Source: Cuspidothrix sp.
GTDB taxonomy: Bacteria; Cyanobacteriota; Cyanobacteriia; Cyanobacteriales; Nostocaceae
NCBI GenBank assembly: GCA_046080125.1
Contig: JBJTTJ010000037.1
Span: 1 to 31,476 of the forward strand
Length of the DNA stretch: 31,476 nucleotides
Direction: 5' to 3'
The position numbers and the translations under genes are program-made. The notes below the pieces were generated by a model. The model searched no databases, was not told where the DNA came from, and saw only the letters and a list, made by a program, of their open reading frames with translations. Positions 1-22,754 of this stretch are shown here, in pieces. Within the stretch, counting starts at the first letter, position 1. Each line of letters opens with the position of its first letter.

Positions 1-106
1 GGATTTCGGGTTCGCGCTTAATGGCGTTTGCCCGCATATCGAAGTTAGTCTTGGGTAAGTTGACGGTATCTTTGTATTTTCCAGTTTCGGTCACAGGTTC
101 ATGCCT

Positions 107-235
107 AAATGTAGGTGTGCAGGTTATCCGATCAATTATAAGTCGTCGGTTGGGTTGAGAAAACCCAACAACGCTTAAACGCTTATTGGTATTTTGGGGT
201 TAATGTTGGGTTTCACTTCGTTCTACCCAACCTAC
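107..235. repeat. Hairpin-containing dispersed repeat, copy R1 (upstream flank of the 3-gene cassette). It holds AAATGTAGG, a GGTTGGGTT-N5-AACCCAAC hairpin, GGTATTTTG, and the 28-mer GTTGGGTTTCACTTCGTTCTACCCAACC
   Basis: The 28-mer at 205-232 is identical to 2317-2344. The upstream hairpin at 148-169 matches the one at 2265-2290 in arrangement. R1 carries an extra ~33 bp (116-147) relative to R2. Confidence 0.6.
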
Positions 236-353
236 GGGAGCATAGGTAGAGCGAATTCCAAATAGTTTAGTCCTGAAACGATGTCTATACAAGCTTTTTA
301 ACTCTAAATTGTAAAACAATAACAAAATTAATAAAATTACTTAAAATATATAT

Positions 354-382
354 TGACAACTTTTGCTAGATAAAGCTATATT
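354..382 (+). promoter_or_regulatory. Sigma70-like promoter candidate: TTGACA, 17-nt spacer, TATATT
   Basis: Consensus -35 TTGACA (354-359) and -10 TATATT (377-382) with a 17-nt spacer, about 70 bp upstream of the first cassette gene and preceded by an AT-rich tract. Confidence 0.45.
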
Positions 383-451
383 GTCTGATATACAAATTTA
401 GTCAAACGATGAATAATATGTTTGTACTATTGCATTGAGAGGAAAAAGCAC

Positions 452-883
452 GTGAGTTCTTTTAAGCAGCTCCCACTATCAGACCTTAGAGAGAGCTTGC
501 CAAAGTTCAAGCGTCAAGTTCAGTTAGGGATGAAGAGAATTGCAGCTACCTATTATGGTCAAGTAGTTGCATTCTTAGTTCCTTTAAAGGATTTAGAACA
601 AGCTGAAAAAGATGGCGCTATTAGTAAAAGTGAAGAAATGTCTTTATCGGATTTCCGGCTACATTTAACGGAATGTTGGGAACGGTTACAAATGGATGTT
701 GATTGTATTTATGTAACGTATCATACGCGCAGAGCAGTAGCTTTTGTTAGCCCTCGTCTTACAAATTATCTTTCAATTCCAATTTCAGAAGTGGCTCATA
801 AGCTTCTTGCCATAGATAGCGGTCTTATTCAAGTAGAAAGTTTACTCAAGGAAGAAATAATTCATGTTCAACATCAAAGCTGA
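452..883 (+). CDS. Protein with two tandem Phd/YefM-antitoxin-like repeats (hypothetical). A GTG start at 452 is preferred; TTG at 422 is the alternative
   Basis: GAGAGG sits 9 nt upstream of GTG 452. Two internal repeats each have LSD[LF]R...[AV]VAF[LV]xP, matching the Phd/YefM N-terminal pattern (…lsevldrv…pvaVLvs.edye). The stop overlaps the next ATG by 20 nt. Confidence 0.55.
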   Translation: MSSFKQLPLSDLRESLPKFKRQVQLGMKRIAATYYGQVVAFLVPLKDLEQAEKDGAISKSEEMSLSDFRLHLTECWERLQMDVDCIYVTYHTRRAVAFVSPRLTNYLSIPISEVAHKLLAIDSGLIQVESLLKEEIIHVQHQS

Positions 884-1748
884 GTCAGAATTGCAAAAAC
901 AACTAAATAAACTAGAAGACTATTATCCTCCCGAAGTTTGTGTGGAATTTAATCAATTTCTAGAAATTCTGAGGAGAGATGGCCAATTTAGCAAAACAGA
1001 TTTTTATGATGTTAATACAAACCAAATTTCTGGACTGACTTGCAACTTATTTTACAGACCTGACTTTGAGAAAGGGGAAGTTTTAATAATTGCATTGAAA
1101 GTCAAGCCAGCAGACGTATTTAGACAGAGATTTAATATTAGGGATGAATGGGATGATAAGGATGTTCTAGAATCTATTCCCCAGTACGATAAACCAGAAA
1201 AAATTGTTAAGGCTATTGAGTTAATTCATCAAGGAATCCAAGATTCTTATGAATTAGGTTATGAATTAGGACATAGAGGCAAGAAAAGAGAATATATTTC
1301 TCGACACGGACAGTATGCGAAGCACGCTATCGAGCAACTTGAACTGATTGTAATAACTCGAAAAGGCAGACAATACCTAGTAGAACTAACAGAAAAAGGC
1401 AGGAGAATTGCTGAAGGAATTAATGATGAGTTAAAATTAAGATTGCTCTATGAAGCTATGTTGCACTATCCTCCTGTTTGGCGAATTATTGTCGCCGTTT
1501 CAGAAAGAGATAGTCAACTAAATGATGGAATACTAAATGATGAATTAGTTAAAAATATAGCTTTTCCAGAAATATTGCGAGGTGCTGATACAAGTAATCG
1601 TCGTTCTCAGACTTTAAAAAACTGGATCAAGCGGATTTCCAAGTTTTCTGGAATTCCTATACGTCTTCACAATAGTGGTATGCAGCTTACTATCCCAATG
1701 CTATATGCTGAAAATGAATATAACAATGAAAACACAGAGGAAGACTAA
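864..1748 (+). CDS. Fusion protein: an N-terminal RelE/ParE/YoeB-like region (weak), a central MarR-like winged-helix segment (…ITRKGRQYLVELTEKGRRI…) and an unassigned ~90-aa C-terminus
   Basis: AAGGAAG RBS precedes ATG 864. There is a 20-nt overlap with the upstream CDS and 23-44 nt with the downstream one. The motif LFYRPDFEKGEVLIIALKVK resembles the RelE/YoeB C-terminal beta-strand region. RHGQYAKH fits R-x6-H. Confidence 0.5.
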   Translation: MFNIKAESELQKQLNKLEDYYPPEVCVEFNQFLEILRRDGQFSKTDFYDVNTNQISGLTCNLFYRPDFEKGEVLIIALKVKPADVFRQRFNIRDEWDDKDVLESIPQYDKPEKIVKAIELIHQGIQDSYELGYELGHRGKKREYISRHGQYAKHAIEQLELIVITRKGRQYLVELTEKGRRIAEGINDELKLRLLYEAMLHYPPVWRIIVAVSERDSQLNDGILNDELVKNIAFPEILRGADTSNRRSQTLKNWIKRISKFSGIPIRLHNSGMQLTIPMLYAENEYNNENTEED

Positions 1749-2217
1749 AATATATGATTTTAAGAGCCAAGAGTTCATAGGTAAGAATGGTGAAAATATT
1801 CTTGATAAATGGCTTGGCTCTATCTATAAAATTTTAGATGTTTCCACGGTTAAAAAGTATCAAAATTCTGGTATAGACAGAATTTTGATGCGTCCCGATG
1901 GAAGCACTGTCAGCGTTGAGTATAAATTCGATTTAGCTTCATCAAGAACAGGAAATTTATTCTTTGAAACTGTCTCTGTAGATAATAAAAATATTCCTGG
2001 TTGGGGATGGCTATCACAGGCTGAATACTGGATATTTTTACTACCAACGATGGAAGTATTAGTAGTTGAGCCGGGAAAAATGAGAAATATGATTTGGTGT
2101 CATCGTTGGGAACTCCAAGAAAAGGAAATTCAGAACGTAGGCTATAAAACTTTAGGAATTCCTATTCCTTTATCTAAAGTTAGAGAAATTGCTTACTACA
2201 TCGTGCAACTAAATTAA
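1714..2217 (+). CDS. Small protein with a PD-(D/E)xK nuclease fold (Hjc/Mrr/VRR-NUC-like motif pattern: GENILDKWL … NSGIDRIL … VSVEYKFD). In-frame starts at 1705/1714/1726 (ATG) or 1675 are all possible
   Basis: An E … D … E-x-K motif series has spacing typical of the restriction-endonuclease-like fold. It overlaps the end of the previous CDS in the same operon and shares its AT-rich composition. Confidence 0.5.
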   Translation: MNITMKTQRKTKIYDFKSQEFIGKNGENILDKWLGSIYKILDVSTVKKYQNSGIDRILMRPDGSTVSVEYKFDLASSRTGNLFFETVSVDNKNIPGWGWLSQAEYWIFLLPTMEVLVVEPGKMRNMIWCHRWELQEKEIQNVGYKTLGIPIPLSKVREIAYYIVQLN

Positions 2218-2257
2218 ATAATTCATAAGTTAAGAGAACCCGACACAAACCATTAGC

Positions 2258-2344
2258 AAATGTAGGTTGGGTTGAAGAACGAAACCCAACACCACCAATC
2301 GGTATTTTGAAATCATGTTGGGTTTCACTTCGTTCTACCCAACC
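2258..2344. repeat. Hairpin-containing dispersed repeat, copy R2 (downstream flank of the cassette)
   Basis: Same element order as R1 and an identical 28-mer (2317-2344). It lies 45 bp after the cassette's last stop codon. Confidence 0.6.
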
Positions 2345-2756
2345 AAAGGCGGGTGTCCTGATGGTGCGTTTGTACTAATAACTCTCATATAACAGCCACT
2401 CTTCATTTTGTCTCCAACCGACGAGATCGCCTAACTTCAAATAATTAAGGATTTATATGGATTACTTATATAGGGGTCGGCAAAATGCCTGTGCCAGATG
2501 ACAATATTTTTGGTTATTATCACGGTTCGCTGTAACAACTTTGTCCAGAGGGTAAGTAAGATCCGAATGATCAGACTTGTGTAGAGAGGTTCTGGGGGAA
2601 CGTCTCTACATATTGGTTTAATTAAGTGTAAGTGAGATAGCCAAAATGTGTACTTCTTGACTTTTGTATTTTACTGGTTATCGAGGGTATTCGAGATCCT
2701 TGCCTTAGCATAAGACAATTTTTGAAGCCCACCTACTTATCTGAAATTCAGATTAC

Positions 2757-5042: not shown

Positions 5043-7970
5043 TTAATTTATGGACACTGTTTCCTCAATCTGGAAAATAATTTCCTCCAATGTTTTCAAT
5101 AATTCTTGTTCATTGTAAGGCTTAGAGAAATAGGCTTTTGCCCCTAATTGCATAGCTAATTGACGATGTTTACTACTACTACGAGAGGTCAACATTACCA
5201 CAGGAATATGTTTTAATTGTGCATGATTATTAATACGTTCCAAGAAGCTATAACCATCAATGCGTGGCATTTCAATATCACAAATTACCGCTTGAATTTG
5301 TAACCCACTTTCTAGCTTCTCCCAAGCTTCTTGACCATCTTTGGCTTGTTCTACTTGATAGCCACCTTTTTCGAGAGTTAAAGCTAGATAACGCCGTACA
5401 TTGATTGAATCATCAACAATCAAAATAATTCCTTTTTGTCGGGTAGGTCGGCTGATATTAGCTACTTTTGGCGGTTGCAGGAAAGCAGTTTGCAATCTTG
5501 TGGTTGGTAGTTTATTACTGAGATAGGGACCTTGACCAGTCGTTAGCCATAATACTAAATCATTTGTGTTTACTAGGGGAACTACTCGACCATCACCCAA
5601 AATAGTACAGTTATTGAAACCGCTAGGTAGGGGGATATTGCCTTCTACTTGACGAATTGCTACTTCCTGTTCACCCCAACAGCGTTCTACTTGAACGGCA
5701 ATTTGTTGATGATCCTGTTTAATTATTAATACGCTGGTTGCATTAATAATAGGGGGGGTTTCTAATTCCCAGTTATTGTAATGAGAACAATTAAATTCAA
5801 AGTAACTATTGAGGCGTAATAATGGTAATTGAGTGTTTTGCCAATGAATAAATGCCTTACTATCTTCATAGAAAATTTGCTCATTTGCTAACAAGAAAAT
5901 TTCCTCAATTACATCTGTGGAGAATGCCAATAGTAAACGATAATTGCGATCGCCGCAAGCATCAGTTTCTACTAATAATACTCGCGCTACCGATAGAGTA
6001 AATGGTACAGATAATGTAAATTTTGTTCCTATGCCAGCTTGAGTATCAACGTTCACATCTCCCCGCGCTATTTTCAGGTTATTTCGGACTACATCCATTC
6101 CCACTCCCCGACCGGATAAAGCTGTTACCTGTTCCGACGTACTAAAACCAGGTTCAAAAATTAATGATAGTAGTTCTTCATCAGTAGCAGTTGCTAATAA
6201 AGTATGATCCAAACCCATTTTTACGGCCTGATCACGAATTTTTTCTACCGCAATGCCTCGACCATCATCACGGATAGTAATTATTGTGCGATTACTATGA
6301 TAAGCAGCTTTAATTTCAATTAAACCTTGTTCGGGTTTTCCTTGGTTTTTCCGTGTTGTAGGGTCTTCAATGCCATGATCAAAAGCGTTACGTAACAAGT
6401 GCATTAATGGCTCATTTAAAGCTTCTAAAATACTCCTTTCAATTAAAGTATTTCCGCCTTCAATTTTTAATTGCACATTTTTGCCATACTCAACATTTAA
6501 GTCTCTAATTGCCCTGGGAAAACGTTCTACTAAATCAGAAAAAGGACGCATCCTAATTTGGGTTAATTGTCTTTGTAATTGTTTCGATGTTTTATTTAAT
6601 TTCCGCGCTATTTGATCCGTATCATCAACACTTAATTGAATATCACTGGTAACTTCTGCTAATTGCACAAGAGTTTCCATCATATTCTGAGATAATAAAT
6701 TTAATTTTTGCTGGCTATCTGACTCTAAAATAGTATTTTCTGTTTCTTCATTTACGTGATTATCATTAATGATTTTTGCATAAGCTATCCGCATTTCTTG
6801 ATTTTCTTCATCAAGAGTACGAACTCTTTGACTTAGACTTCGCACTAATTTACGTAGTCTTTCTACTTGCACATTTAAGCCATTACGTTGAATAATTACC
6901 TCTCCAAATAGATCATTAATTCTTTCGAGATGTTTGCTAGGAACTCTAACTGTATTTTCCTGATTTTCTCTTTCTTTATGGAGTGGGTTAGTATCGTTTC
7001 TACTTTCAGTATATTTAGTATCTACAGTATCTACTGTATCTCTTTCTGGATGATTAGCAAAATCACCAGCATTAATATCTGGGGATAATTGGACATTTTC
7101 TAATAATTCTAAATCCGAAATAACTGGTTTCTTTGACAGAGGATCAGCTTGACTCGCTAACATATTTATTTGTAGGGAGCCTTGATCATCAATAATTTGA
7201 CTTAGATCAATTTTTTTAGGTAAATTACCCCATTGATTACTTAATACTAAAGCTTGCGATCGCCGCCATGCTTGTAATGCTAAATCAGCAATTTCTAAAC
7301 AGTGATTAGGATAGATATCTAAAGAACGGCTGACTGATTTACATAGTTCGGTAAAAGCCGTTAACTGAAGCATTTCTCCTAAACCAGCCAACTCATTCGC
7401 CATCATGGCTAAATCCGATCTAATCCCTGACGTATTATTATTTTTTAATCTTGCTTCCAGACGTTTTAAATATTCTTCAACTTCAGTTTCAAACAATAAA
7501 GGGATAAATTCTTGACCATCTTCCGATGATAATAAGGTCGTAATATTTTCTGGTGTGGGTTCACCAAGACGCTGATAAAGTTGATCAAAAACTGGATAAC
7601 AGACCTTTTCTAACCAAATATGATCTAAATTATTACCCTTAGCAAGTAATTCGACAATTTGCCTGAGCCAATCCACAGCAGATAGTAATAAACTTTGTAA
7701 ATGAGTATCAAATTCTAGAGAATTTTTCTGAGTCTTTAAAACCTTAAAAGCATCTTCCAAGCGATGGGCTAAATCACTTAATACACGGAATCCCATCATT
7801 GCTGCGCCGCCTTTAATCGAATGGGCGGCTCGCATGGCTGCGTTAATATGTTCTAATTCAATCTGTCTGCTATTATCAATTTCTAGTAAAATTACCTCTA
7901 AAGTATTGAGATAATCAGTGGCCTCTTCTAGAAATTGCATTTGGATTTCCAATTCTTTATCTTTAGACAT
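5043..7970 (-). CDS. CheA-like hybrid histidine kinase (Hpt – dimerisation – HATPase – CheW-like – C-terminal REC; PilL/TaxAY/HmpE-like)
   Basis: Hpt motif HSIKGGAAMMGF. HATPase N-box HLLRNAFDHGIE and G-boxes. CheW-like region. C-terminal receiver ILIVDDS…DIEMP…, 975 aa. Confidence 0.88.
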   Translation of the reverse strand: MSKDKELEIQMQFLEEATDYLNTLEVILLEIDNSRQIELEHINAAMRAAHSIKGGAAMMGFRVLSDLAHRLEDAFKVLKTQKNSLEFDTHLQSLLLSAVDWLRQIVELLAKGNNLDHIWLEKVCYPVFDQLYQRLGEPTPENITTLLSSEDGQEFIPLLFETEVEEYLKRLEARLKNNNTSGIRSDLAMMANELAGLGEMLQLTAFTELCKSVSRSLDIYPNHCLEIADLALQAWRRSQALVLSNQWGNLPKKIDLSQIIDDQGSLQINMLASQADPLSKKPVISDLELLENVQLSPDINAGDFANHPERDTVDTVDTKYTESRNDTNPLHKERENQENTVRVPSKHLERINDLFGEVIIQRNGLNVQVERLRKLVRSLSQRVRTLDEENQEMRIAYAKIINDNHVNEETENTILESDSQQKLNLLSQNMMETLVQLAEVTSDIQLSVDDTDQIARKLNKTSKQLQRQLTQIRMRPFSDLVERFPRAIRDLNVEYGKNVQLKIEGGNTLIERSILEALNEPLMHLLRNAFDHGIEDPTTRKNQGKPEQGLIEIKAAYHSNRTIITIRDDGRGIAVEKIRDQAVKMGLDHTLLATATDEELLSLIFEPGFSTSEQVTALSGRGVGMDVVRNNLKIARGDVNVDTQAGIGTKFTLSVPFTLSVARVLLVETDACGDRNYRLLLAFSTDVIEEIFLLANEQIFYEDSKAFIHWQNTQLPLLRLNSYFEFNCSHYNNWELETPPIINATSVLIIKQDHQQIAVQVERCWGEQEVAIRQVEGNIPLPSGFNNCTILGDGRVVPLVNTNDLVLWLTTGQGPYLSNKLPTTRLQTAFLQPPKVANISRPTRQKGIILIVDDSINVRRYLALTLEKGGYQVEQAKDGQEAWEKLESGLQIQAVICDIEMPRIDGYSFLERINNHAQLKHIPVVMLTSRSSSKHRQLAMQLGAKAYFSKPYNEQELLKTLEEIIFQIEETVSIN

Positions 7971-8014
7971 TATTCCTTGTTCCTTATTTATGGGTTGCTT
8001 TAATAGTTAGGAGG

Positions 8015-10621
8015 TTAATTAACCGAAAAAGTTTCTAAAGTTTCCTTTAATTCCTGTGAAACATCTACTGCTTTCTCTAAAGATTGATAAATTTGACGAT
8101 AATTATCACTACTACGAGTGGAGATGCTGTTCATTTTTTCGATAGTTTGGCTCAGAAGTTGTGATGTTTGTAATTCGGATGCAGTCGAATTTAAAATAGA
8201 GTTGCTCAAGCTATCTATCTGTTGTGATACATCGAGAATTTGTTGTAACTGCTGTTTTACATTTTTAATCATCTGGCTACTTTCAATAACTCGATTATTT
8301 CCCATAGTCATTGTTTGTAACATTTCGCTGGTTTCTTGCTGAATGTTGGTAATTATTTCTTCGATTTCCTGAATTACGGTAGCACTTCTACCGGCTAATT
8401 CTCCTACTTCTTCAGCTACTACAGCAAAACCTTGGCCTTCTTCTCCTGCTTTTGCCGCCTCAATTCCAGCATTAATTCCTAGTAAATTAGTTTGCATAGC
8501 AATTTGATTAATGATAGAAACTACACGAGAAATTTGTTGGGAAGATGCCCCTAACCATTTTAATTTTTTAGTTGTTTCCTCAACTGTTTCCTGGATTAAT
8601 AAAATATTTTGCAATGTTAACTCCATTGCTGCTTGAGTATCTATAGCTTTATGATTGCTTTCATTAACAATTTTAACAGTTTGCTGCGCCATATTTCCTA
8701 TAGATTGAAGAGCAATTGTCATCTTGTTAATGCTTTCTAAGCTGTGGTTAAGTTGTGGTTCTATCACTGTTTCTGCTGTGAGTTGTTTGAAGGAAATATT
8801 CACCTCACTTACAGATTGTTGAATTTGGTTGATAATTGGCTGAAGATTATTCTGAAAATCGTGTATTTCTAAACTATCTTGACTATTATTCACTTGTTTA
8901 TTTGCTGTTAATCTTTTAATCTGGTCTACCAGATAGGATTGTTCTAAAGCATAACCTATTTCCATTACTATCTGTGTCAAGAAACTAATTTCTTCTTGTT
9001 GCCAATTATGGCAATTTTGACAATGATGAACAATTAAAAAGCCTTTAATTTCTCCATGAATGAAAATTGGTGCAGTGATACTGCTCTGAACATACAATTT
9101 TTTCAGCCAGTCAAGATAACTATTAGTTATATTAGTAGCTGTTTCTGAATTGGATATGATTTGTAATTGAGGATTTGCTGCTAGTTCTTGCCAATGAGCA
9201 TCATTATTATATGCACCCAGGATTTTTTCCCAAGTCCCATTTATTGATTCAGCAACAAATTTTCCTGTTTGATTATCTTTACTAAGCTTATAAATTATTA
9301 CTCTGTCTGCTTTAAGGATTTGAACAAGTTCCGAAACTACTGTTTGATAAATGTATTCAGGCTGAAAATGCAAGCGCATTTTTTTAGTAATATTTAAAAT
9401 TAATTCTAGCCATTGCATTTCTCTTGCTGGGTATTCATCTAGCTTGGCTGCATTGAGATGTCTGTCCTCTTGGCTACCCCTTAAATTACCTAGAGATGTA
9501 TCATTTTTATTCTTAATTCGTTGACTTAATATGGCTACTACCAAAGTCATTAATAATGCGATTAGTGGAGTTGTACTGGCAATTAATGTTAAAAATTCTC
9601 TTTGAGGTTTAAAGGCAATAGTTGTATCTTTAGCCAGGATTAATTGCCAATTGGTTTCTGGTAAATCTGCTAATTTGCGAAATGGTATATAACTGATTAA
9701 TTCTTGTTTTCGATTAGTTTTAGCAATTGCCGTAAATGTATCAATATTTTTCGCTTTTAAAACATTAGCTAAAGCTGGATATATTTCCATAGCATCTTTC
9801 CCAAATAAATTTGTCTGGGAACTGATAACGATTTTTCCTGTTTCATCTAAAAAATAATATGTATCATTTGTATAGCCTCGTACTACTTCTTCTAAGGTTT
9901 TTAAGGGTATACGAGTTCTAACTATACCAATAGTATTGCCCTGGTCTTTAATAGGTGCAGCAATATAAATGACTGCACCTATATTGTTTAGAAAAACAGG
10001 TTGACTAATAATCGAAGTATTTTTTCTAATTGCTTCTTGAAAATAAAGCTGTTCGTTTTCTGGGGTTAAAGTTTCTCCTGCTGATTGAATGATTACTTGT
10101 CCCTTCAGATCAAATGCAGCTACACTATCATAAACTTTACTTGTTTTTATTAGTCGGTTTAAAGAGTCTTTTGTTTCTAGATTAAATCGAATTGTGTTAA
10201 CTTTATCTACTAAATTTGCTTGTGCAGATGGTGTTTTTTTAGGGACAGTATTTTTATCCAACCAGAAGAAGTTAGGTAATACTTGAATATCTCCATGGTG
10301 CTTCTGAATCAGACTATTGACTGTATCATTAATGCTAATGGCTTTAGTTTCTTGAGATGTGATAATTTGTTTAGTAATTAAGTTGCTACCAAAAATATAA
10401 GCGATCGCACCGATTCCTAATACTGGCAAAGTGCCCACAGCTATAGACAAGATTATAGATTTGGTACTTAACCTAAATTTACTAACATATTTCAAGGCGA
10501 GATTTTTACTATTCTCTGGAATAGATTTTTCTGGTGTATTATCTATAGGTTTAGTGGAAGTAATCAAGGTTAGTTGATTTTGAGGATCTGTGTTTTGTTT
10601 GATATTAGTTTTATTGAACAT
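8015..10621 (-). CDS. Methyl-accepting chemotaxis protein (PilJ/HmpD-like). Two TM segments flank a ~300-aa extracytoplasmic region, followed by a GAF domain and an MCP signalling domain
   Basis: Highly conserved MCP signalling core …[29 protein letters not shown]… A GAF-like region (…[11 protein letters not shown]…). Two hydrophobic helices near residues 55-80 and 340-365. Confidence 0.88.
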
Positions 10622-10683
10622 ACATTAGTCACCCTGCATAGAAAGTAGATAAAAACATTTAACACAAGATTTCCCAGTATTAA

Positions 10684-11175
10684 TTAGGAGTTAATACGAA
10701 GAATATCTGATTGTAAAATCTGTACTGCATCTAATACCAATAATATTTCTTCTTGTTGCACTATACAACCACACAAGAAAGGTACTAAACTAGATGCTAC
10801 CTGTCCTACAGGAGAACGAATATCATCAACAGTAAACTTAGTTGTTCCTTGAACTTCTTGGACAACCAAACCTAAGATCATTGATTCTATTTGAATAACA
10901 ATGATGTTATACTGACGTAAGCGATAATCAAGAGATTCCAAATTAAACATCTTAGGTAAATCAACTACCCAGATGATATGACTACGCCAATTCATTAATC
11001 CTAATATACAAGGGGGCATATTGGGAACTGCTGTAACAGATGTCACAGGTGTTACAACTGCCTCCTGAGTATGACTAATGGATAAAACAGCACCTGTTTG
11101 TTGATTGAGTTGAAATTTCAGATAGCTATCTTCTGGTTGAGAATGTGTACTGGGATGGTTGAAATCAGTTTGCAT
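10684..11175 (-). CDS. CheW-like coupling protein (PilI/HmpC-like). The ATG at 11175 is preferred; the longer GTG start at 11265 is possible
   Basis: CheW domain (…LKFQLNQQTGAVLSISHTQEAV…ILGLMNWRSHIIWVVDL…). The first 30 aa of the long ORF are not CheW-like. Confidence 0.75.
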   Translation of the reverse strand: MQTDFNHPSTHSQPEDSYLKFQLNQQTGAVLSISHTQEAVVTPVTSVTAVPNMPPCILGLMNWRSHIIWVVDLPKMFNLESLDYRLRQYNIIVIQIESMILGLVVQEVQGTTKFTVDDIRSPVGQVASSLVPFLCGCIVQQEEILLVLDAVQILQSDILRINS

Positions 11176-11469
11176 CTTTTGTATGAGGATGATGAAAATT
11201 AGTTTATAGGGTTTTTTGCTGGAGTCAAATACTTTAACCCCATTGTAGGAAACTACGGTGTACACAGAAGTTTAATCAAGTGGCCTAAATATCTGACCGC
11301 ATTGTTTGAAGAGTTACCTTTAATTTTAGAGAATATAGTTACCCAGAGATAAAGTTTGTATAAAAGTGGGAAATTCCGGCGCTCACCTTCTAGAGTACCT
11401 ATACCTGCAAGTGTTTATAGACCAGTCTCTGACTGGGGATAATCAGATAGAGACTCTGCTTTTATTATT

Positions 11470-11568: not shown

Positions 11569-13725
11569 TTAACGGTTTACTGATGCTGCTTCCCGTGCTG
11601 CTGCTGCTTGATCTGGGTGGATACCCAAGCGTGTCAGGTTAATGCGTCCCTTATTGTCAATTTCTCGCACCTTGACAATGACCTCATCACCAACAGCTAC
11701 CTCATCTTCAACTTTACCAACACGGTAGTCAGCGAGTTGAGAAATGTGAATCATGCCCTCCTTACCGGGTAAAAATTCCACAAAAGCACCAATGGGTATA
11801 ATCCGAGTCACACGACCGATATAAACATCACCTTCATGAAGTTTACGAGTCATACCTTGAACAATGTTCCGAGCCTTCTTAGCCCTATTTTCATCCACTG
11901 CGGAAATAGTGACAGTACCATCATCTTGGATATCAATTTTAGCACCAGTTTCTTCAGTGATACCCTTAATAGTTTTGCCACCAGGTCCAATGACCAGACC
12001 AATCATGTCAGGATCAATCTTAATCGTTAACAGACGTGGAGCAAAAGGTGAAGTTTCTTCTCTGGGGGTGTCAATAGTTTCCAGCATTTTCTCCAGAATG
12101 TGCAACCGGGCAGATTTGGCTTGGTTGACAGCTTGGGCAATTACCTCTAAAGATAGACCAGATATTTTCATATCCATTTGCAAAGCTGTAATACCGCTAT
12201 CTGTGCCGGCAACTTTAAAGTCCATATCACCCAGGAAATCTTCAATACCTTGAATATCAGTGAGGACTCGTACTTCATCTCCTTCCTTAATTAAACCCAT
12301 AGCCGCACCACTGACGGGTTTGGTAATTGGTACACCGGCATCCATGAGAGAGAGAGTAGAACCACAAACTGAACCCATAGATGTAGAACCATTAGAAGAA
12401 AGAACTTCTGAAACGACGCGAATTACGTAGGGGAACTGGTCTTTAGGTGGTAATACAGGTAACAAAGCTCTTTCCGCTAATGCACCATGGCCAATTTCTC
12501 GTCTACCGGGGGCGCGTAATGGTTTAGTTTCGCCCACGGAGAAGGGAGGGAAATTATAGTGATGTAGATAACGCTTGGCTTGGTCTAATTGTAAGTCATC
12601 ACTCAAGTTTTGGGCATCACCCGGAGTCCCTAGAGTACACATTGATAGGACCTGAGTCAGTCCTCGGTTAAATAGACCGCTACCATGAACTCGTTTAGGG
12701 ATTAAACCTACACGGCAAGACACAGGGCGGACTTCATCAAGTTTGCGACCATCAACGCGGATGTTATCTTCAATAATTTGACGGCGCATCAGATATTTGG
12801 TAATACTTTTGAAAGTATTACCCAAGGCCTTAGAATCTGCTGTAGCCGCAACGCGAATGGAGTCTTCTTCTGATAAAGCGGCAATTTCTGCTGCAATGGC
12901 ATCTTTAACTGCATCCAAAGCAATATCCCGATCAGTTTTAGTCAACTCAAATTGAGCCAGGATTTTCTTAATTTGATCACCAGCGCGATCGCGGATATAG
13001 TTTTCTAATGTCTGATCCACTTCTGGGGGTACTTCTGCCACAGATTTAAGACCTAGTTCTGCCACTAAATCCAACTGAGCTTGAATTAAATCTCGTACCG
13101 CCTCATAGCCAAAATCAATTGCCTCAATAATATCCCGTTCTGGCAACTGATTCGCACCAGCTTCCACCATGATGACACCATCTGGTGAACCTGCTACCAC
13201 TAGATCCAAATCTCCTGCCTCAATTTCTGCGTAGGTAGGATTAATAATAAAATCATCACCCACTAAGCCAACCCGCACTGCGGCCATGGGTCCATTAAAG
13301 GGAATTTGGGCAATGAGGGTAGCAATTGAAGCGCCTGTCACGGCTAAGACATCCGGTGGAACTTGCTCATCCATGGACATCGTTAAGGCCACAACTTGTA
13401 AATCATCCCGTAACCATGAAGGAAATAAAGGACGAAGGGGACGATCAATCAGACGACTGGTAAGAATTGCCTTTTCCGGTGGACGACCTTCCCGACGCAT
13501 AATTCCTCCGGGAATTCTGCCTGCCGCATATAGTCTTTCTTCATAATCCACGGTCAGAGGCAAAAAATCAACGCCCTCTCTAGCGGCTGATCTTGTCGCT
13601 GTTACTAAAACAGTTGTATCACCTGATTGTATCAACACCGACCCACCTGCTTGGGGGGCCAGTAGGCCAACCGTTAGTCGAATATCCCGTCCATCAAAGG
13701 ATATTGACTTTTCAAATTCTGCCAT
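11569..13725 (-). CDS. pnp: Polyribonucleotide nucleotidyltransferase (PNPase)
   Basis: 718 aa with two RNase PH domains, KH and S1 (…[20 protein letters not shown]…). Canonical N-terminus [15 protein letters not shown]. Confidence 0.93.
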
Positions 13726-20129: not shown

Positions 20130-22754
20130 CTATAAATCTGCTAATTGCAATAAATCTAGGCCTTGGGTAAAAATTTCATCAATAGGTAACATTTTCCCCT
20201 CTTGAGTCATGAATTTATGGTCTTTGGTAGCGCGAATAATTGCCCCATTTTCCAACAAGTATTCATAGACTTTTTGCTGTCCCCGATGATGCCATTGGGC
20301 GATAGGCTGAGTATAAAGTATACCATTACTATCAACTGTATACACCCGACATTGAATTTGTTTTTCGACAATTTCCCCAATTTCTAAAAATCCATATTCA
20401 ACGGTTAAAATCTGCGTTTCGTAACTTAAACAGTATTCGGCAAACTTTAACATATCCCCAAATAAATGTTCAGCGACTTGGGTTTTTACACCATTTTTTG
20501 TTGAACCATCAATAAATTTTTCCTTTTGTTTCTCCATTTCGGATACTTTCTTTTTACCCATAGCACGACGGAGTAAATCAGCTTGTCCTAAGCTATAACC
20601 AGCCATATCTTGGGCAATTTTCATAATTTGCTCCTGATATACCATGATACCATAGGTTTCATTTAAGATAGGTTGTAAAATTTGACTATCATATTCAATT
20701 TCTTCGCGTCCATGTTTACGATTAATAAATTTAGGAATTAATCCTGCATCCAGTGGACCGGGGCGATAAAGTGCAAGAATAGAGGAAATATCTTCAATAT
20801 TGGAAGGTTTTAAATCTCGGACTATTTGTTTCATCCCAGAGGATTCTAATTGAAATATGCCTTCTAAATCACCTGCTTCTAATAGGGAATAAGCTTTAGC
20901 GACATCTTGAGGTAAGCTGGTATGTTCACCTTTAGCTAATATTTTTTGTGCTTTTCTTTCCTGTCGTGTAATTTCATCAGGATCAATTCGATGGTTTTGA
21001 CTTTGTTGAATTAAATCAATAGTTTTTTGAATAAGGGTTAAATTCCGCAAACCCAAAAAGTCCATTTTTAATAATCCCAATGATTCTAAATCTTCCATAA
21101 AATATTGGGTAATTACAGAGCCATCATTATTACGTTGTAGGGGAACAAGTTCATCTAATGGTTCTGCGGAAATAACGACACCAGCAGCATGAACACCAAA
21201 GGTTTTGTTAGTACCTTCAATTCGCATAGCCATATCAATCCAGTGACGAACAGTGGGGTCATGATCATATTTGGCTTTAAATTCTGGTTCAGGGGTTTCA
21301 TCAGAAATCATCACTTTTAATTTTGTTGGTTTACCCCGAACGACAGGAATCATTTTCGCCATTTTGTCAGATTCACCGTAGGGAATATCTAATACTCTGG
21401 CCACATCTTTTAGTACTGCTTTCGAGGTGAGACGGTTAAAAGTGATAATTTGGGCAACTCGATCAACACCGTATTTTTGAGTAACATAATCAATAACTTG
21501 ATCGCGTTTATCAATGCAGAAATCCGTATCAATATCCGGCATTGATTTACGTTCAGGATTGAGAAATCTTTCAAAGAGTAAGCCATGATGTACGGGGTCA
21601 ATATTCGTAATTTTCATGGCATAGGCGACTAAAGAACCAGCCGCAGAACCTCTTCCTGGTCCGACTGGAATATTATGATCTCGCGCAAATTTGATGTAGT
21701 CCCACACCACTAAAAAGTAAGTAGAAAATCCCATCTGTTGAATCATTTTCAATTCATATTCTAATCTTTCTTTGTAGACTGGATCTACTTCGTTGCGAGA
21801 TTTGCGATTTAATCTTTCTAAAAGTCCTTGCCATGCCACTTCTTCTGCATAGTTATCTGCTGTATGTCCTGAAGGGATTGTGGGTGTAGGAATTTGGGGA
21901 TCACCCATGATGTGATAGGGTTCAACTTTATCGGCAATTTCTGCGGTTGTGGCTATGGCTTCAGCAATAATATCATCGGGTAAATGATCACGAAATAGTT
22001 GCTGCATTTCTTCAGCAGATTTGAGATATTCTGTCCCAGAATACCGCATCCGATTATCTTCACTAATGAGTTTACCTGTTTGAATACATAGTAAGGCATC
22101 ATGGGATTCTACATCAAAACAGGAGATAAAATGGGAGTCATTGGTAGCGATAAATTTAATGCCTAATTCTTGAGCAATTTTGATTATTTCTACATTGACG
22201 ATTCTATCTTCTTGTGAACCATGATCTTGTATTTCTAAATAGAAATCTTCCCCAAATACTTCTTGATACCATTTAGCGATTTTTCTGGCTGCATCTGGTC
22301 TGTTACTAAGAATTGCTTGGGGAATTTCTCCTCCTAAACAAGCGCTGGTGATAATCAAACCTTCGCTATATTGTTTGAGTAGATCTTTGTTAATACAAGG
22401 ACGGGAAAAAATGCCTTTACCTTGTACACCTTGAAGATGGGAGATGGTGGTAATTTTAACTAAGTTTTTATAACCTTTGGTGTTTTTAGCTAGAACAACC
22501 TGATGATATTTAGGACGACGTTCTTGCTTATCAATTTCACCATTAATAATATACATTTCATTGCCAATAATTGGCTTAATGGTTTTACTACGGCAGATTT
22601 TAATTAGTTCAACTGCACCATACATGACACCATGATCTGTTAATGCGATCGCTTTCATTCCTAGGGCGATCGCCTGATCTACTAACTCTGGTAGTTGACT
22701 AGCGCCATCCAGCAAACTGTAATCACTATGAATATGTAACGGTACAAAAGACAT
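20130..22754 (-). CDS. dnaE: DNA polymerase III alpha subunit, N-terminal part of the naturally split dnaE (dnaE-n), ending in the N-terminal half of the split DnaE intein
   Basis: PHP domain N-terminus [17 protein letters not shown] and polymerase core. The ORF ends …KFAEY|[15 protein letters not shown]…[17 protein letters not shown]…, which matches the cyanobacterial split-intein IntN (Npu/Ssp DnaE type). Confidence 0.9.
20133..20432 (-). other. Split-intein N-fragment (IntN, ~100 aa) at the C-terminus of dnaE-n
   Basis: Begins with Cys1 (codon 20430-20432) in CLSYET and contains the conserved TxxH block (…RATKDHKF…). It is followed directly by a stop codon with no C-extein. Confidence 0.85.

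What the first reader, a model, noticed from the sequence alone, without database searches (positions are those of the whole stretch)
107..2344. Repeat-bracketed three-gene cassette: tandem Phd-like protein, RelE-like/wHTH fusion, PD-(D/E)xK nuclease. Candidate novel TA/defence module.
Three tightly overlapping genes (overlaps of 20 nt and roughly 23-44 nt) sit in an AT-rich stretch. A consensus promoter precedes them, and two copies of a ~90-bp hairpin-containing direct repeat flank them. They lie next to housekeeping gcvH/gcvT. The predicted functions are nucleic-acid-directed. Gene 1 is a doubled Phd/YefM antitoxin fold. Gene 2 joins a RelE/YoeB-like segment to a MarR-like winged helix, with a possible R-x6-H. 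Gene 3 is a ~165-aa Hjc/Mrr-like restriction-endonuclease fold. I do not recognise this combination or order as a described toxin–antitoxin or phage-defence family. The repeat flanks suggest it was acquired as a unit.
Basis: partly seen in the sequence, partly recalled or inferred. Interest (0 to 1): 0.82.

Follow-up and report, generated by a model that had tools for sequence, protein, structure and literature searches.

The report
Cyanobacterial Phd–RelE-fold–nuclease toxin-antitoxin-like cassette
This is a real three-gene operon found only in cyanobacteria: an undescribed variant of a toxin–antitoxin module (antitoxin-like gene, then a RelE-fold protein fused to a restriction-enzyme DNA-binding domain, then an optional DNA-cutting enzyme). 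The repeats beside it are ordinary dispersed mini-elements, not its borders.

Summary
Three overlapping + strand genes are present: g1 452-883, g2 864-1748 and g3 1726-2217. They sit behind an 11/12 sigma-70 promoter and between two copies of a ~90-nt hairpin repeat.

The fold guesses were largely right.
- g1 is Phd/YefM-like with an internal duplication.

Four parts of the interpretation need correcting.
- The constant unit is the g1-g2 pair, found in every locus examined. g3 is present in only 13 of 22 distinct loci.
- The RelE-fold domain has no conserved catalytic residues. The conserved residues lie in DUF7226, which elsewhere is the C-terminal domain of Type II restriction enzymes.
- The repeats belong to a dispersed REPIN/MITE-like family, with more than 120 exact cores in cyanobacterial genomes. 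Other cassette loci lack them.
- In this window the cassette lies among housekeeping genes (ileS, gcvH/T) and is syntenic with Nodularia.

Best reading: a type II toxin–antitoxin-like addiction or defence module with a DNA-directed composite effector. It is absent from PADLOC and from the searchable literature, so I rate it a new variant of a known kind.

The parts
2..94 (-). 5' end of ileS (isoleucyl-tRNA synthetase), the divergent left neighbour. It is not part of the cassette.
   Evidence: Translation VTETGKYKDTVNLPKTNFDMRANAIKREPEI. It aligns with the start of the IleRS gene in Nodularia L002.
145..237 (+). Left copy of a dispersed REPIN/MITE-like hairpin element. It is a bystander, not a cassette boundary.
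   Evidence: A decayed orthologous copy is present in Nodularia.
310..318 (+). Conserved TGTAAAACA box about 35 nt upstream of the -35 hexamer. It is a candidate operator or regulatory site of the cassette.
   Evidence: GTAAAAC is found upstream of g1 in 8 of 12 loci, with near-variants in 3 more. Background is about 0.1 per kb per strand. In the window alone it is not significant.
353..382 (+). Sigma-70-type promoter TTGACA-18-TATATT.
   Evidence: 11 of 12 match. It is conserved in Nodularia and D. circinale and TTGACA is present in most other loci.
452..883 (+). g1: a 143-aa antitoxin-like protein with two Phd/YefM-like repeats in tandem (about res 3-45 and 59-103). It also has a conserved tail, L-[PS]-I-P-x-S-E-V-A-H-K-L.
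   Evidence: PF02604 scores 25.7 bits for the window protein (below GA 29.8), but 43 of 46 homologues match, best E 2.3e-8. Profile hit to RelB1 antitoxin 9g12_C, E 0.001. N-half against C-half by hhalign gives E 2.8e-5, prob 74%. There are 104 homologue clusters, all cyanobacterial where a source names the organism.
864..1133 (+). g2 N-terminal domain (aa 1-90): RelE/YoeB (BECR) fold without a conserved catalytic set. I propose it is the docking site for g1.
1173..1649 (+). g2 central and C-terminal module (aa ~104-262): winged helix plus a helical domain, equal to DUF7226. It carries the family's invariant residues R147, G149, Y151, T243, R246 and R247.
1683..1706 (+). g2 C-terminal tail motif Q-L-T-I-P-M-L-Y in a disordered segment. 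It is a short linear motif with an unknown partner.
   Evidence: pLDDT is below 50 from residue 271, yet Q274 and L275 are near-invariant. The motif is kept in distant members and in members lacking g3.
1726..2217 (+). g3: a 163-aa PD-(D/E)xK nuclease, translationally coupled to g2. It is an accessory component, present in 13 of 22 loci.
2262..2349 (+). Right copy of the REPIN/MITE-like element. It is not shared with the Nodularia orthologous locus.

Best explanation
This is a type II toxin-antitoxin-like addiction or defence module. Its obligatory core is the g1-g2 pair.

g1 is a single-chain, tandem Phd/YefM-type antitoxin. g2 is a composite effector: an N-terminal RelE/YoeB-fold domain acts as the handle that g1 grips, as YefM grips YoeB. 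This handle is fused to a DUF7226 winged-helix/helical DNA-binding module of the kind found at the C-terminus of a family of Type II restriction endonucleases. In most loci, including this one, a translationally coupled PD-(D/E)xK nuclease (g3) is added.

Proposed mechanism. At rest, g1 binds g2 and the complex autoregulates the strong promoter, probably through the conserved TGTAAAAC box. When g1 is lost or titrated (phage infection, loss of the element, proteolysis), free g2 acts on DNA through DUF7226. Where g3 is present, g2 directs or licenses DNA cleavage by g3.

Shown: the genes, their overlaps, the promoter, the three folds, the catalytic D...ExK motif of g3, constant g1-g2 co-occurrence, optional g3, occurrence in varied and often mobile contexts including plasmids, and the link between DUF7226 and restriction enzymes.

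Inferred: g1-g2 binding, toxicity, DNA as the target, the trigger, and the role of the TGTAAAAC box.
For: - Gene order and 20-nt overlap are as in Phd/YefM-RelE/YoeB operons.
- g1 is Phd/YefM-like and duplicated.
- The g2 N-domain has the RelE/YoeB fold by two methods.
- g1 and g2 are adjacent in every locus where upstream sequence exists. That covers 12 genomic or plasmid loci and 12 metagenome loci, in different neighbourhoods: next to TA pairs, an integrase, a relaxase plus serine recombinase, IS605, R-M genes, and on a 292-kb Nostoc plasmid.
- The full-length g2 family is small (about 50 clusters at 50% identity among 1.84 billion representatives). Every member that a source names is cyanobacterial.
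- Family-wide invariant residues lie in DUF7226, not in the RelE-fold domain.
- DUF7226 in remote relatives belongs to DUF6996-DUF6997-DUF7226 proteins. These match PADLOC's Type II REase model over its full length (E 1e-34 to 1e-38). One is fused to a Dam-class methyltransferase. Other relatives are DUF7226 plus a C-terminal D..ExK..QLYEY domain.
- g3 has the PD-(D/E)xK fold with an intact motif and overlaps the end of g2.
- The promoter and the upstream TGTAAAAC box travel with the cassette.
Against: - No experiment has been done, and I could not model any complex.
- g1 is the most conserved of the three proteins (65-92% identity across orders). That is unusual for an antitoxin.
- The second half of g1 is not recognised as Phd by PDB profile search. 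Its Phd nature rests on the internal hhalign match alone.
- The window protein is below Pfam's gathering score for Phd (25.7 against 29.8).
- The RelE-fold domain lacks conserved catalytic residues, so if g2 is toxic the activity is unidentified.
- In this window, and in several other loci, the neighbours are housekeeping genes.
- No hit in IMG/VR viral contigs.
- A distant g2 variant on the Crinalium plasmid has no detectable Phd-like partner.
Confidence: 0.5

Rival explanations
1. Classical RelE-type module. The g2 N-domain would be an active ribosome-dependent mRNA endonuclease neutralised by g1. The DUF7226 part would be only an autoregulatory DNA-binding appendage, like the HTH in RelE-YiaG, HigB-HigA or gp49-HTH fusions. 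g3 would be a passenger.
For: The RelE/YoeB fold has rmsd 2.3 Å to E. coli RelE. Toxin-HTH fusions of the RelE/ParE superfamily are documented (PMC11980606). g1-g2 stands alone in 9 loci. In the close subfamily a [KR]-x-R-F motif (R89, F90) sits in the C-terminal helix, where RelE has R81 and Y87 (the RelE residue numbers are from memory).
Against: R89 and F90, and every other basic, acidic or His candidate in the N-domain, are lost in the wider family. Only L36, G40 and Y64 persist. There is no Pfam RelE/ParE/YoeB match (1 of 48 members at E 0.077). The strongest purifying selection is on DUF7226.
Confidence: 0.2
2. Split restriction endonuclease without a methyltransferase (Type IV/Mrr-like or solitary Type II-like). 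g2 would be the DNA-recognition subunit and g3 the cleavage subunit. g1 would be a controller that delays or limits expression rather than a true antitoxin.
Against: g3 is missing from 9 of 22 loci, with no common replacement. This leaves g2 without a nuclease partner, yet g2 remains conserved. No methyltransferase is linked in 20 or more loci. Neither g2 nor g3 matches any PADLOC REase model. This reading does not explain the RelE-fold domain.
Confidence: 0.15
3. Non-conflict function: a cyanobacterial transcription-factor pair (g1, g2) with an associated DNA-repair or resolvase-type nuclease (g3, RecU/Hjc-like).
For: Neighbours here and in Rippkaea and Vacuolonema are housekeeping genes. g1 conservation is high. 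g3 resembles the RecU and Hjc resolvases. ileS synteny extends across genera.
Against: Distribution is patchy, with different insertion sites even within Nostocales. The cassette occurs on plasmids and next to integrases, relaxases and IS elements. Divergent subfamilies exist at different loci. The architecture is that of a TA module.
Confidence: 0.08
4. One reading: a unit bounded by the ~90-bp direct repeats and acquired, or excisable, through them. A variant of this is a homing-endonuclease cassette driven by g3.
For: There are two exact 27-nt cores only 2.1 kb apart and none elsewhere in 31 kb. The two copies share a GGTATTTTG spacer, and the right copy's best match is tied between the D. 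circinale left copy and another Dolichospermum copy. The best structural match of g3 is the homing endonuclease I-Ssp6803I.
Against: The element is a dispersed family, with more than 120 exact cores across cyanobacteria. No flanking repeats are found in Rippkaea, Nodularia or L004. The left copy is orthologous in Nodularia whereas the right one is absent and homology stops at the g3 stop codon. The conserved cassette starts at the TGTAAAAC box, about 70 nt inside the left repeat. g3 is optional.
Confidence: 0.05

Closest known systems
YefM-YoeB / Phd-Doc / RelBE type II toxin-antitoxin modules
   Same: A Phd/YefM-type gene lies first and overlaps a RelE/YoeB-fold gene behind a strong sigma-70 promoter. 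The modules are small, mobile and patchily distributed. Best PDB matches are the RelB1 antitoxin (g1) and RelE/YoeB toxins (g2 N-domain).
   Different: The antitoxin is a tandem duplication in one chain. The RelE-fold domain has no conserved catalytic residues and no Pfam membership. It is fused to a domain of about 200 aa, DUF7226. A nuclease gene is often appended.
Multidomain and fused RelE/ParE-superfamily toxins (Gerdes 2025, PMC11980606): RelE-YiaG, HigB-HigA, gp49-HTH fusions and the ptuXYZ operon
   Same: A BECR-fold domain is fused to a DNA-binding domain. A RelE-like protein is combined with restriction-type components in a three-gene operon.
   Different: Those families were found through Pfam RelE/ParE membership, which g2 lacks. 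Their HTH is an Xre-type antitoxin domain, not DUF7226. ptuXYZ has a DUF262 protein and a PtuA-like ATPase, with no Phd partner and no PD-(D/E)xK gene. That paper does not mention cyanobacteria.
Type II restriction endonucleases with DUF6996-DUF6997-DUF7226 architecture (PADLOC REase_II PDLC03513), and Mrr (Mrr_N + PD-(D/E)xK)
   Same: They share the DUF7226 / Mrr_N-like winged-helix module, with the R-[HQ]-G-x-Y and T-x-x-R-R signatures, and its association with a D...ExK nuclease.
   Different: Here the nuclease is a separate, optional gene that is not detectably homologous to theirs. There is no methyltransferase. The N-terminus is a RelE fold rather than DUF6996/6997. g2 itself does not reach the PADLOC model.
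I-Ssp6803I, RecU, Hjc and small Type II REases (PvuII, ThaI, NhoI), as fold neighbours of g3
   Different: Sequence identity is 9-14%, with no sequence-level match to any PDB chain or Pfam family. g3 also has family-specific motifs (TGNLFFET, PGWGW, SQADYW).
REPINs / cyanobacterial small dispersed repeats (Bertels & Rainey 2011, PMC3116915), for the flanking repeats
   Same: Two inverted REP-like hairpin units form one long hairpin. The element is short, extragenic and present in many copies across genomes.
   Different: I did not test association with a RAYT transposase. The exact core also occurs in some MAGs binned to other phyla.

Membership tests
Phd/YefM antitoxin (Pfam PF02604) | Sequence match to the family profile above the curated threshold | tested here: inconclusive
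   The window g1 scores 25.3-25.7 bits against GA 29.8. 43 of 46 homologues match at E<=1, best 2.3e-8. The PDB profile hit is RelB1 antitoxin at E 0.001. Only the first repeat matches. The second is linked through internal hhalign at E 2.8e-5 and is not found by PDB profile search.
Phd/YefM antitoxin (Pfam PF02604) | Encoded immediately upstream of, and co-transcribed with, its toxin gene | tested here: met
   There is a 20-nt overlap with g2. Adjacency holds in all loci examined.
Phd/YefM antitoxin (Pfam PF02604) | Binds and neutralises the toxin; represses its own promoter | not testable with these tools
   This needs co-expression, pull-down and EMSA experiments.
RelE/YoeB (BECR-fold) ribosome-dependent mRNases | b-a-a-b-b-b(-a) BECR fold | tested here: met
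RelE/YoeB (BECR-fold) ribosome-dependent mRNases | Sequence membership in a Pfam RelE/ParE/YoeB/HigB family | tested here: not met
   There is no hit for the window protein at E<=1. One of 48 homologues hits ParE_toxin at E 0.077. There is no PDB sequence hit.
RelE/YoeB (BECR-fold) ribosome-dependent mRNases | Conserved catalytic or phosphate-binding residues (e.g. YoeB E46/R65/H83/Y84; RelE K52/K54/R61/R81/Y87; residue lists from memory) | tested here: not met
   In the broad family alignment A9 no Arg, Lys, His or Glu in aa 1-100 is conserved. Only L36, G40 and Y64 are near-invariant. R89 and F90 of the close subfamily are lost in the PCC 7108 type. I had no structure-based residue superposition.
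DUF7226 (Pfam PF23871) | Profile match above the gathering score | tested here: met
   29.3 bits against GA 27 over aa 143-259. 48 of 48 homologues match, best 3.5e-14.
PD-(D/E)xK nuclease superfamily (g3) | a-b-b-b-a-b core fold | tested here: met
PD-(D/E)xK nuclease superfamily (g3) | Catalytic Asp before strand 2 and (D/E)-x-K on strand 3 | tested here: met
   D51 and E65 are invariant; K67 and E23 are near-invariant across 48 homologues. Their positions match strands 52-55 and 61-68 of the model.
PD-(D/E)xK nuclease superfamily (g3) | Metal-dependent DNA (or RNA) cleavage | not testable with these tools
   Requires a biochemical assay.
Type II restriction-modification system | Linked cognate DNA methyltransferase | tested here: not met
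   There is no methyltransferase gene in the window's cassette or adjacent to it in the loci. A Dam methyltransferase follows g2 only in the distant Crinalium variant. The methylases near L129 and L139 are on the other strand and belong to other units.
Known anti-phage defence systems (PADLOC-DB v2.0.0) | Significant match of any component to a system model | tested here: not met
   The best E-values are 0.0045 (a CARF wHTH) for g2 and 0.011 (Cas4b) for g3, with none for g1.
REPIN / MITE-like dispersed repeat (flanking elements) | Pair of inverted hairpin units forming a long hairpin; many dispersed extragenic copies | tested here: met
   Folding z-scores are -4.4 and -5.7. More than 120 exact cores occur in species-representative genomes, with a common architecture.
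REPIN / MITE-like dispersed repeat (flanking elements) | Associated RAYT or other transposase that mobilises it | not tested
   I made no search for RAYT genes in the host genomes.

The most novel reading that the evidence does not exclude
The RelE fold has been repurposed as an antitoxin-operated switch on a restriction-enzyme DNA-binding module. On this reading g1/g2(/g3) is a methyltransferase-free, TA-gated DNA-targeting immunity or addiction system. Self-DNA would be protected by sequestration by a single-chain Phd antitoxin rather than by modification. The invariant C-terminal Q-L-x-I-P-[ML] tail of g2 would tether the effector to a host factor such as the beta sliding clamp. That motif resembles the QLxLxL clamp-binding hexapeptide; I recall this from memory and did not test it.
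Probability: 0.2. Interest if true: 0.75.

Novelty: new variant of a known kind. Interest (0 to 1): 0.55.

Why it matters
If g1-g2(-g3) behaves as proposed, it adds a family restricted to cyanobacteria to the RelE/ParE-Phd/YefM toxin-antitoxin world, with three unusual features:
- The BECR fold appears to have lost catalysis and become a regulatory handle.
- A restriction-enzyme DNA-binding domain (DUF7226, currently of unknown function) would be the business end.
- The antitoxin is a covalently linked pseudo-dimer.

It would also give a first functional handle on DUF7226. It would supply a compact candidate defence or addiction module for bloom-forming Nostocales (Dolichospermum, Nodularia), where few phage-defence systems have been characterised. 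If it proves to be only a regulator pair, the finding is of minor interest.

Tried and rejected
- Rfam search of 1-2800 at E<=1 found no RNA family for the repeats or the UTR.
- Empty-site test via the exact GcvH protein: the protein is not on record, so no cassette-free orthologous site could be retrieved.
I ran a Foldseek PDB search instead.
- PDB profile searches for g2 and g3 found nothing significant. The second half of g1 gave only insignificant WW-domain hits.
- A Rosetta-stone test asked whether g3 is homologous to the nuclease domain fused to DUF7226 in 340-aa relatives. hhalign found no homology, and a PDB profile of those relatives was uninformative.
- I looked for an alternative third gene in loci lacking g3. 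The downstream genes are unrelated to g3 and to each other.
- The protein upstream of g2 on the Crinalium plasmid is not Phd-like.
- The IMG/VR viral contig scan for g2 found no relatives. In phage genomes g3 has one weak hit, Thermus phage phiFa at E 8e-4.
- Literature searches for DUF7226, DUF6996/6997 and the PCC8801_1676-1678 locus tags returned nothing relevant.
- HEPN-like 'R-x6-H': rejected, because the residues are part of the DUF7226 winged-helix signature.
- Repeats as att sites or terminal repeats: rejected.
Full report
OBSERVATION

The region contains three + strand ORFs.
- g1 runs 452-883. GTG 452 is the likely start: it is preceded by GAGAGGA at 437-443, and the 143-aa length matches homologues.
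- g2 runs 864-1748 (294 aa).
- g3 runs 1726-2217 (163 aa). Alternative in-frame starts exist at 1705 and 1675.

g1 and g2 overlap by 20 nt. g2 and g3 overlap by 23 nt. A TTGACA-18-TATATT promoter at 353-382 matches 11 of 12 positions and is the best site in the region.

Two ~90-nt direct repeats lie at 145-237 and 2262-2349. They share an exact 27-nt core that occurs nowhere else in the 31-kb window, with none expected by chance. Each copy folds into one long hairpin (z -4.4 and -5.7).

The left edge of the window (2-94, minus strand) is the N-terminus of ileS. gcvH and gcvT follow on the right; I identified them from their translations only. The cassette's GC content is only slightly lower than that of its neighbours.

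THE PROTEINS

g1. The N-terminal half matches Pfam PhdYeFM_antitox at 25.7 bits, below the gathering score of 29.8. However, 43 of 46 homologues match, best E 2.3e-8. A family profile hits the M. tuberculosis RelB1 antitoxin 9g12_C at E 0.001. The two halves align to each other by profile-profile comparison over 42 columns (E 2.8e-5, prob 74%), so a tandem Phd-like duplication is supported. The second repeat is not independently recognisable as Phd. g1 is the most conserved of the three proteins, at 65-92% identity across cyanobacterial orders.

g2. The AlphaFold model has pLDDT 85.8 and shows three parts:
- aa 1-90 with b-a-a-b-b-b-b-a topology;
- a winged helix at aa 111-175 followed by a helical domain to aa 262;
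- a disordered tail.

None of the three proteins matches a PADLOC model significantly. g2 and g3 have no sequence relatives in the PDB.

WHAT TRAVELS TOGETHER

g2 homologues form a small family. There are 71 clusters at 90% identity and about 50 at 50% identity among 1.84 billion representatives. Every member that a source names is cyanobacterial.

I examined 22 distinct loci.
- g1 precedes g2 in every locus with upstream sequence.
- g3 follows and overlaps g2 in 13 loci: this window and D. circinale, Nodularia, Rippkaea PCC 8801, Anabaena PCC 7108, Pseudanabaena PCC 6802, FACHB-472, Vacuolonema and six metagenome contigs.
- g3 is absent in 9 loci, including a 292-kb Nostoc plasmid, Microcoleus, Anabaena azotica and a 7.6-Mb genome.
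- The genes downstream of g2 in those nine loci are unrelated to g3 and to each other.

The obligatory unit is therefore g1-g2, and g3 is a frequent accessory.

Neighbourhoods differ from locus to locus. They include TA pairs, an integrase, a relaxase with a serine recombinase, IS605, R-M genes and DUF499/DUF1156/SNF2 genes, but also plain housekeeping genes. The module is therefore mobile but is not confined to defence islands. In this window the surroundings are housekeeping: ileS, gcvH/T, a chemotaxis-like cluster, PNPase and dnaE.

WHERE THE SELECTION ACTS

I aligned g2 with members down to 22% identity. The invariant or near-invariant residues are Q107, G124, R147, G149, Y151, L161, T243, R246 and R247, all in the linker or in DUF7226. 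In the RelE-fold domain only L36, G40 and Y64 persist. The [KR]-x-R-F motif of the close subfamily is lost in the PCC 7108-type proteins, which are still full-length homologues (hhalign E 2.5e-30). The RelE fold is thus probably not a conserved RNase.

WHAT DUF7226 IS ELSEWHERE

Remote relatives match only positions ~100-270 of g2. They fall into two architectures.
- DUF6996-DUF6997-DUF7226 proteins of about 430 aa. These match PADLOC's Type II restriction enzyme model PDLC03513 over its full length (E 6e-34 and 2e-38). One is fused to a D12 (Dam-class) methyltransferase.
- Proteins of about 340 aa with DUF7226 followed by a domain carrying D...E-x-K...QLYEY, which reads as a PD-(D/E)xK motif.

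A distant g2 homologue on a Crinalium plasmid is followed by a Dam-type methylase and sits among helicase, EAD1 and MoxR genes. DUF7226 is therefore a DNA-directed module that habitually works with PD-(D/E)xK nucleases. g3 is not detectably homologous to those nuclease domains.

CIS ELEMENTS

Besides the promoter, a TGTAAAAC(A) box lies 10-45 nt upstream of the -35 hexamer. GTAAAAC is exact in 8 of 12 loci, and 3 more have near-variants. The PCC 7108 and PCC 6802 variants carry tandem ACGTAAAA repeats. Background frequency is about 0.1 per kb per strand. In this window the box is at 310-318. It is a candidate operator.

The disordered C-terminal tail of g2 carries a near-invariant Q-L-T-I-P-M-L-Y motif. 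The motif is kept even where g3 is absent, so it is not simply a g3-docking peptide. It resembles the beta-clamp-binding hexapeptide; this is from memory and I did not test it.

THE REPEATS

The hits span Nostocales, Oscillatoriales, Trichodesmium, Prochloron and others. The copies share a common architecture: GTAGGTTGGGTTGAGGAACGAAACCCAAC, then 15-25 nt, then GTTGGGTTTCACTTCGTTCTACCCAACCTAC. This is a REP-doublet or MITE-like element of the kind described as REPINs or small dispersed repeats (PMC3116915). No Rfam family matches it.

Four results show that the repeats are not the cassette's boundaries.
- Cassette loci in Rippkaea, Nodularia and L004 have no flanking repeats.
- The window aligns with Nodularia at 87% identity from ileS through the g3 stop codon. 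That stretch includes a decayed orthologous left copy.
- Homology to Nodularia ends at the g3 stop codon, and Nodularia has no right copy.
- The right copy is about as similar to other Dolichospermum copies as to the left copy.

The repeats are bystanders, and in this lineage the cassette looks like an old resident.

MECHANISM

Best-supported reading (confidence about 0.5): a type II TA-like module. The single-chain tandem Phd protein g1 grips the RelE-fold handle of g2 and, with g2, autoregulates the promoter. Free g2 acts on DNA through DUF7226. Where g3 is present, g2 directs or licenses cleavage by g3.

Rivals:
- A genuine RelE-type mRNase with an autoregulatory HTH, for which fusions are documented in PMC11980606. 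Confidence 0.2.
- A split, methylase-less restriction enzyme with g1 as controller. Confidence 0.15.
- A non-conflict regulator and repair set. Confidence 0.08.
- The repeat-bounded or homing-cassette idea. Confidence 0.05.

Everything beyond folds, motifs, linkage and distribution is inference.

NOVELTY

The searchable literature does not mention DUF7226, DUF6996 or DUF6997, or the Rippkaea locus tags. The survey of multidomain RelE/ParE toxins does not cover this architecture, because g2 lies outside the Pfam RelE/ParE families. I rate this a new variant of a known kind, with interest about 0.55.

Noticed in passing
window 145-237 and 2262-2349; loci L015, L028, L049, L059, L081, L086, L095, L036, L075, L025, L116: The exact 27-nt core of the cyanobacterial REPIN/MITE-like element also occurs in MAGs labelled Poribacteria, Nitrospirota, Pseudomonadales and Gammaproteobacteria. 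Exact identity across phyla is unexplained; misbinning or horizontal spread are possibilities. In Nostoc the element is often nested inside a larger MITE with ends ACAGTTCAGTTAAG...CTTAACTGAAC.
   Followed up: partly
window 310-318; upstream of g1 in L002, L129, L133, L134, L136, L138, L139 (exact) and L001, L004, L126 (near-variants): A conserved TGTAAAAC(A) box lies just upstream of the cassette promoter across otherwise unalignable loci. The PCC 7108 and PCC 6802 variants carry tandem ACGTAAAA repeats. It is probably the operator of the module.
   Followed up: partly
window 1683-1706 (g2 aa 274-281) and 770-805 (g1 aa ~107-118): Short conserved proline-containing motifs sit in predicted tails: g2 Q-L-T-I-P-M-L-Y, which resembles a beta-clamp-binding hexapeptide, and g1 L-S-I-P-I-S-E-V-A-H-K-L. 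Their partners are unknown.
   Followed up: no
L132 (Crinalium epipsammum plasmid pCRI9333.02) 4247-10693: A distant g2 homologue (32% identity, DUF7226) is followed by a Dam-class methyltransferase, a serine protease, an EAD1-domain protein and a MoxR ATPase, and is preceded by a DEAD/DEAH helicase. This looks like a different conflict system that uses the same g2 scaffold.
   Followed up: partly
L129 (Pseudanabaena sp. PCC 6802) 5161-6020: g2 appears split or truncated here (34-aa and 191-aa gene calls) while g1 and g3 are intact. It may be a decaying copy or a sequencing frameshift.
   Followed up: no
window 20130-22754 (-): The DnaE ORF is only 874 aa and contains the PHP, pol III alpha and finger domains. 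This is consistent with the N-terminal half of the split-intein dnaE known in cyanobacteria. I did not check it.
   Followed up: no
window 5043-11265 (-): A chemotaxis-like cluster: a CheA-type hybrid kinase (Hpt, HATPase, CheW and receiver domains), an MCP with a GAF domain, and CheW. PNPase follows at 11569-13725. These are ordinary housekeeping context.
   Followed up: partly
window 2581-2611: A perfect-stem hairpin, TGTAGAGAGGTTCTGGGGGAACGTCTCTACA, lies in the 400-nt spacer between the right repeat and the end of gcvH. It could be a gcvH terminator or another small repeat.
   Followed up: no
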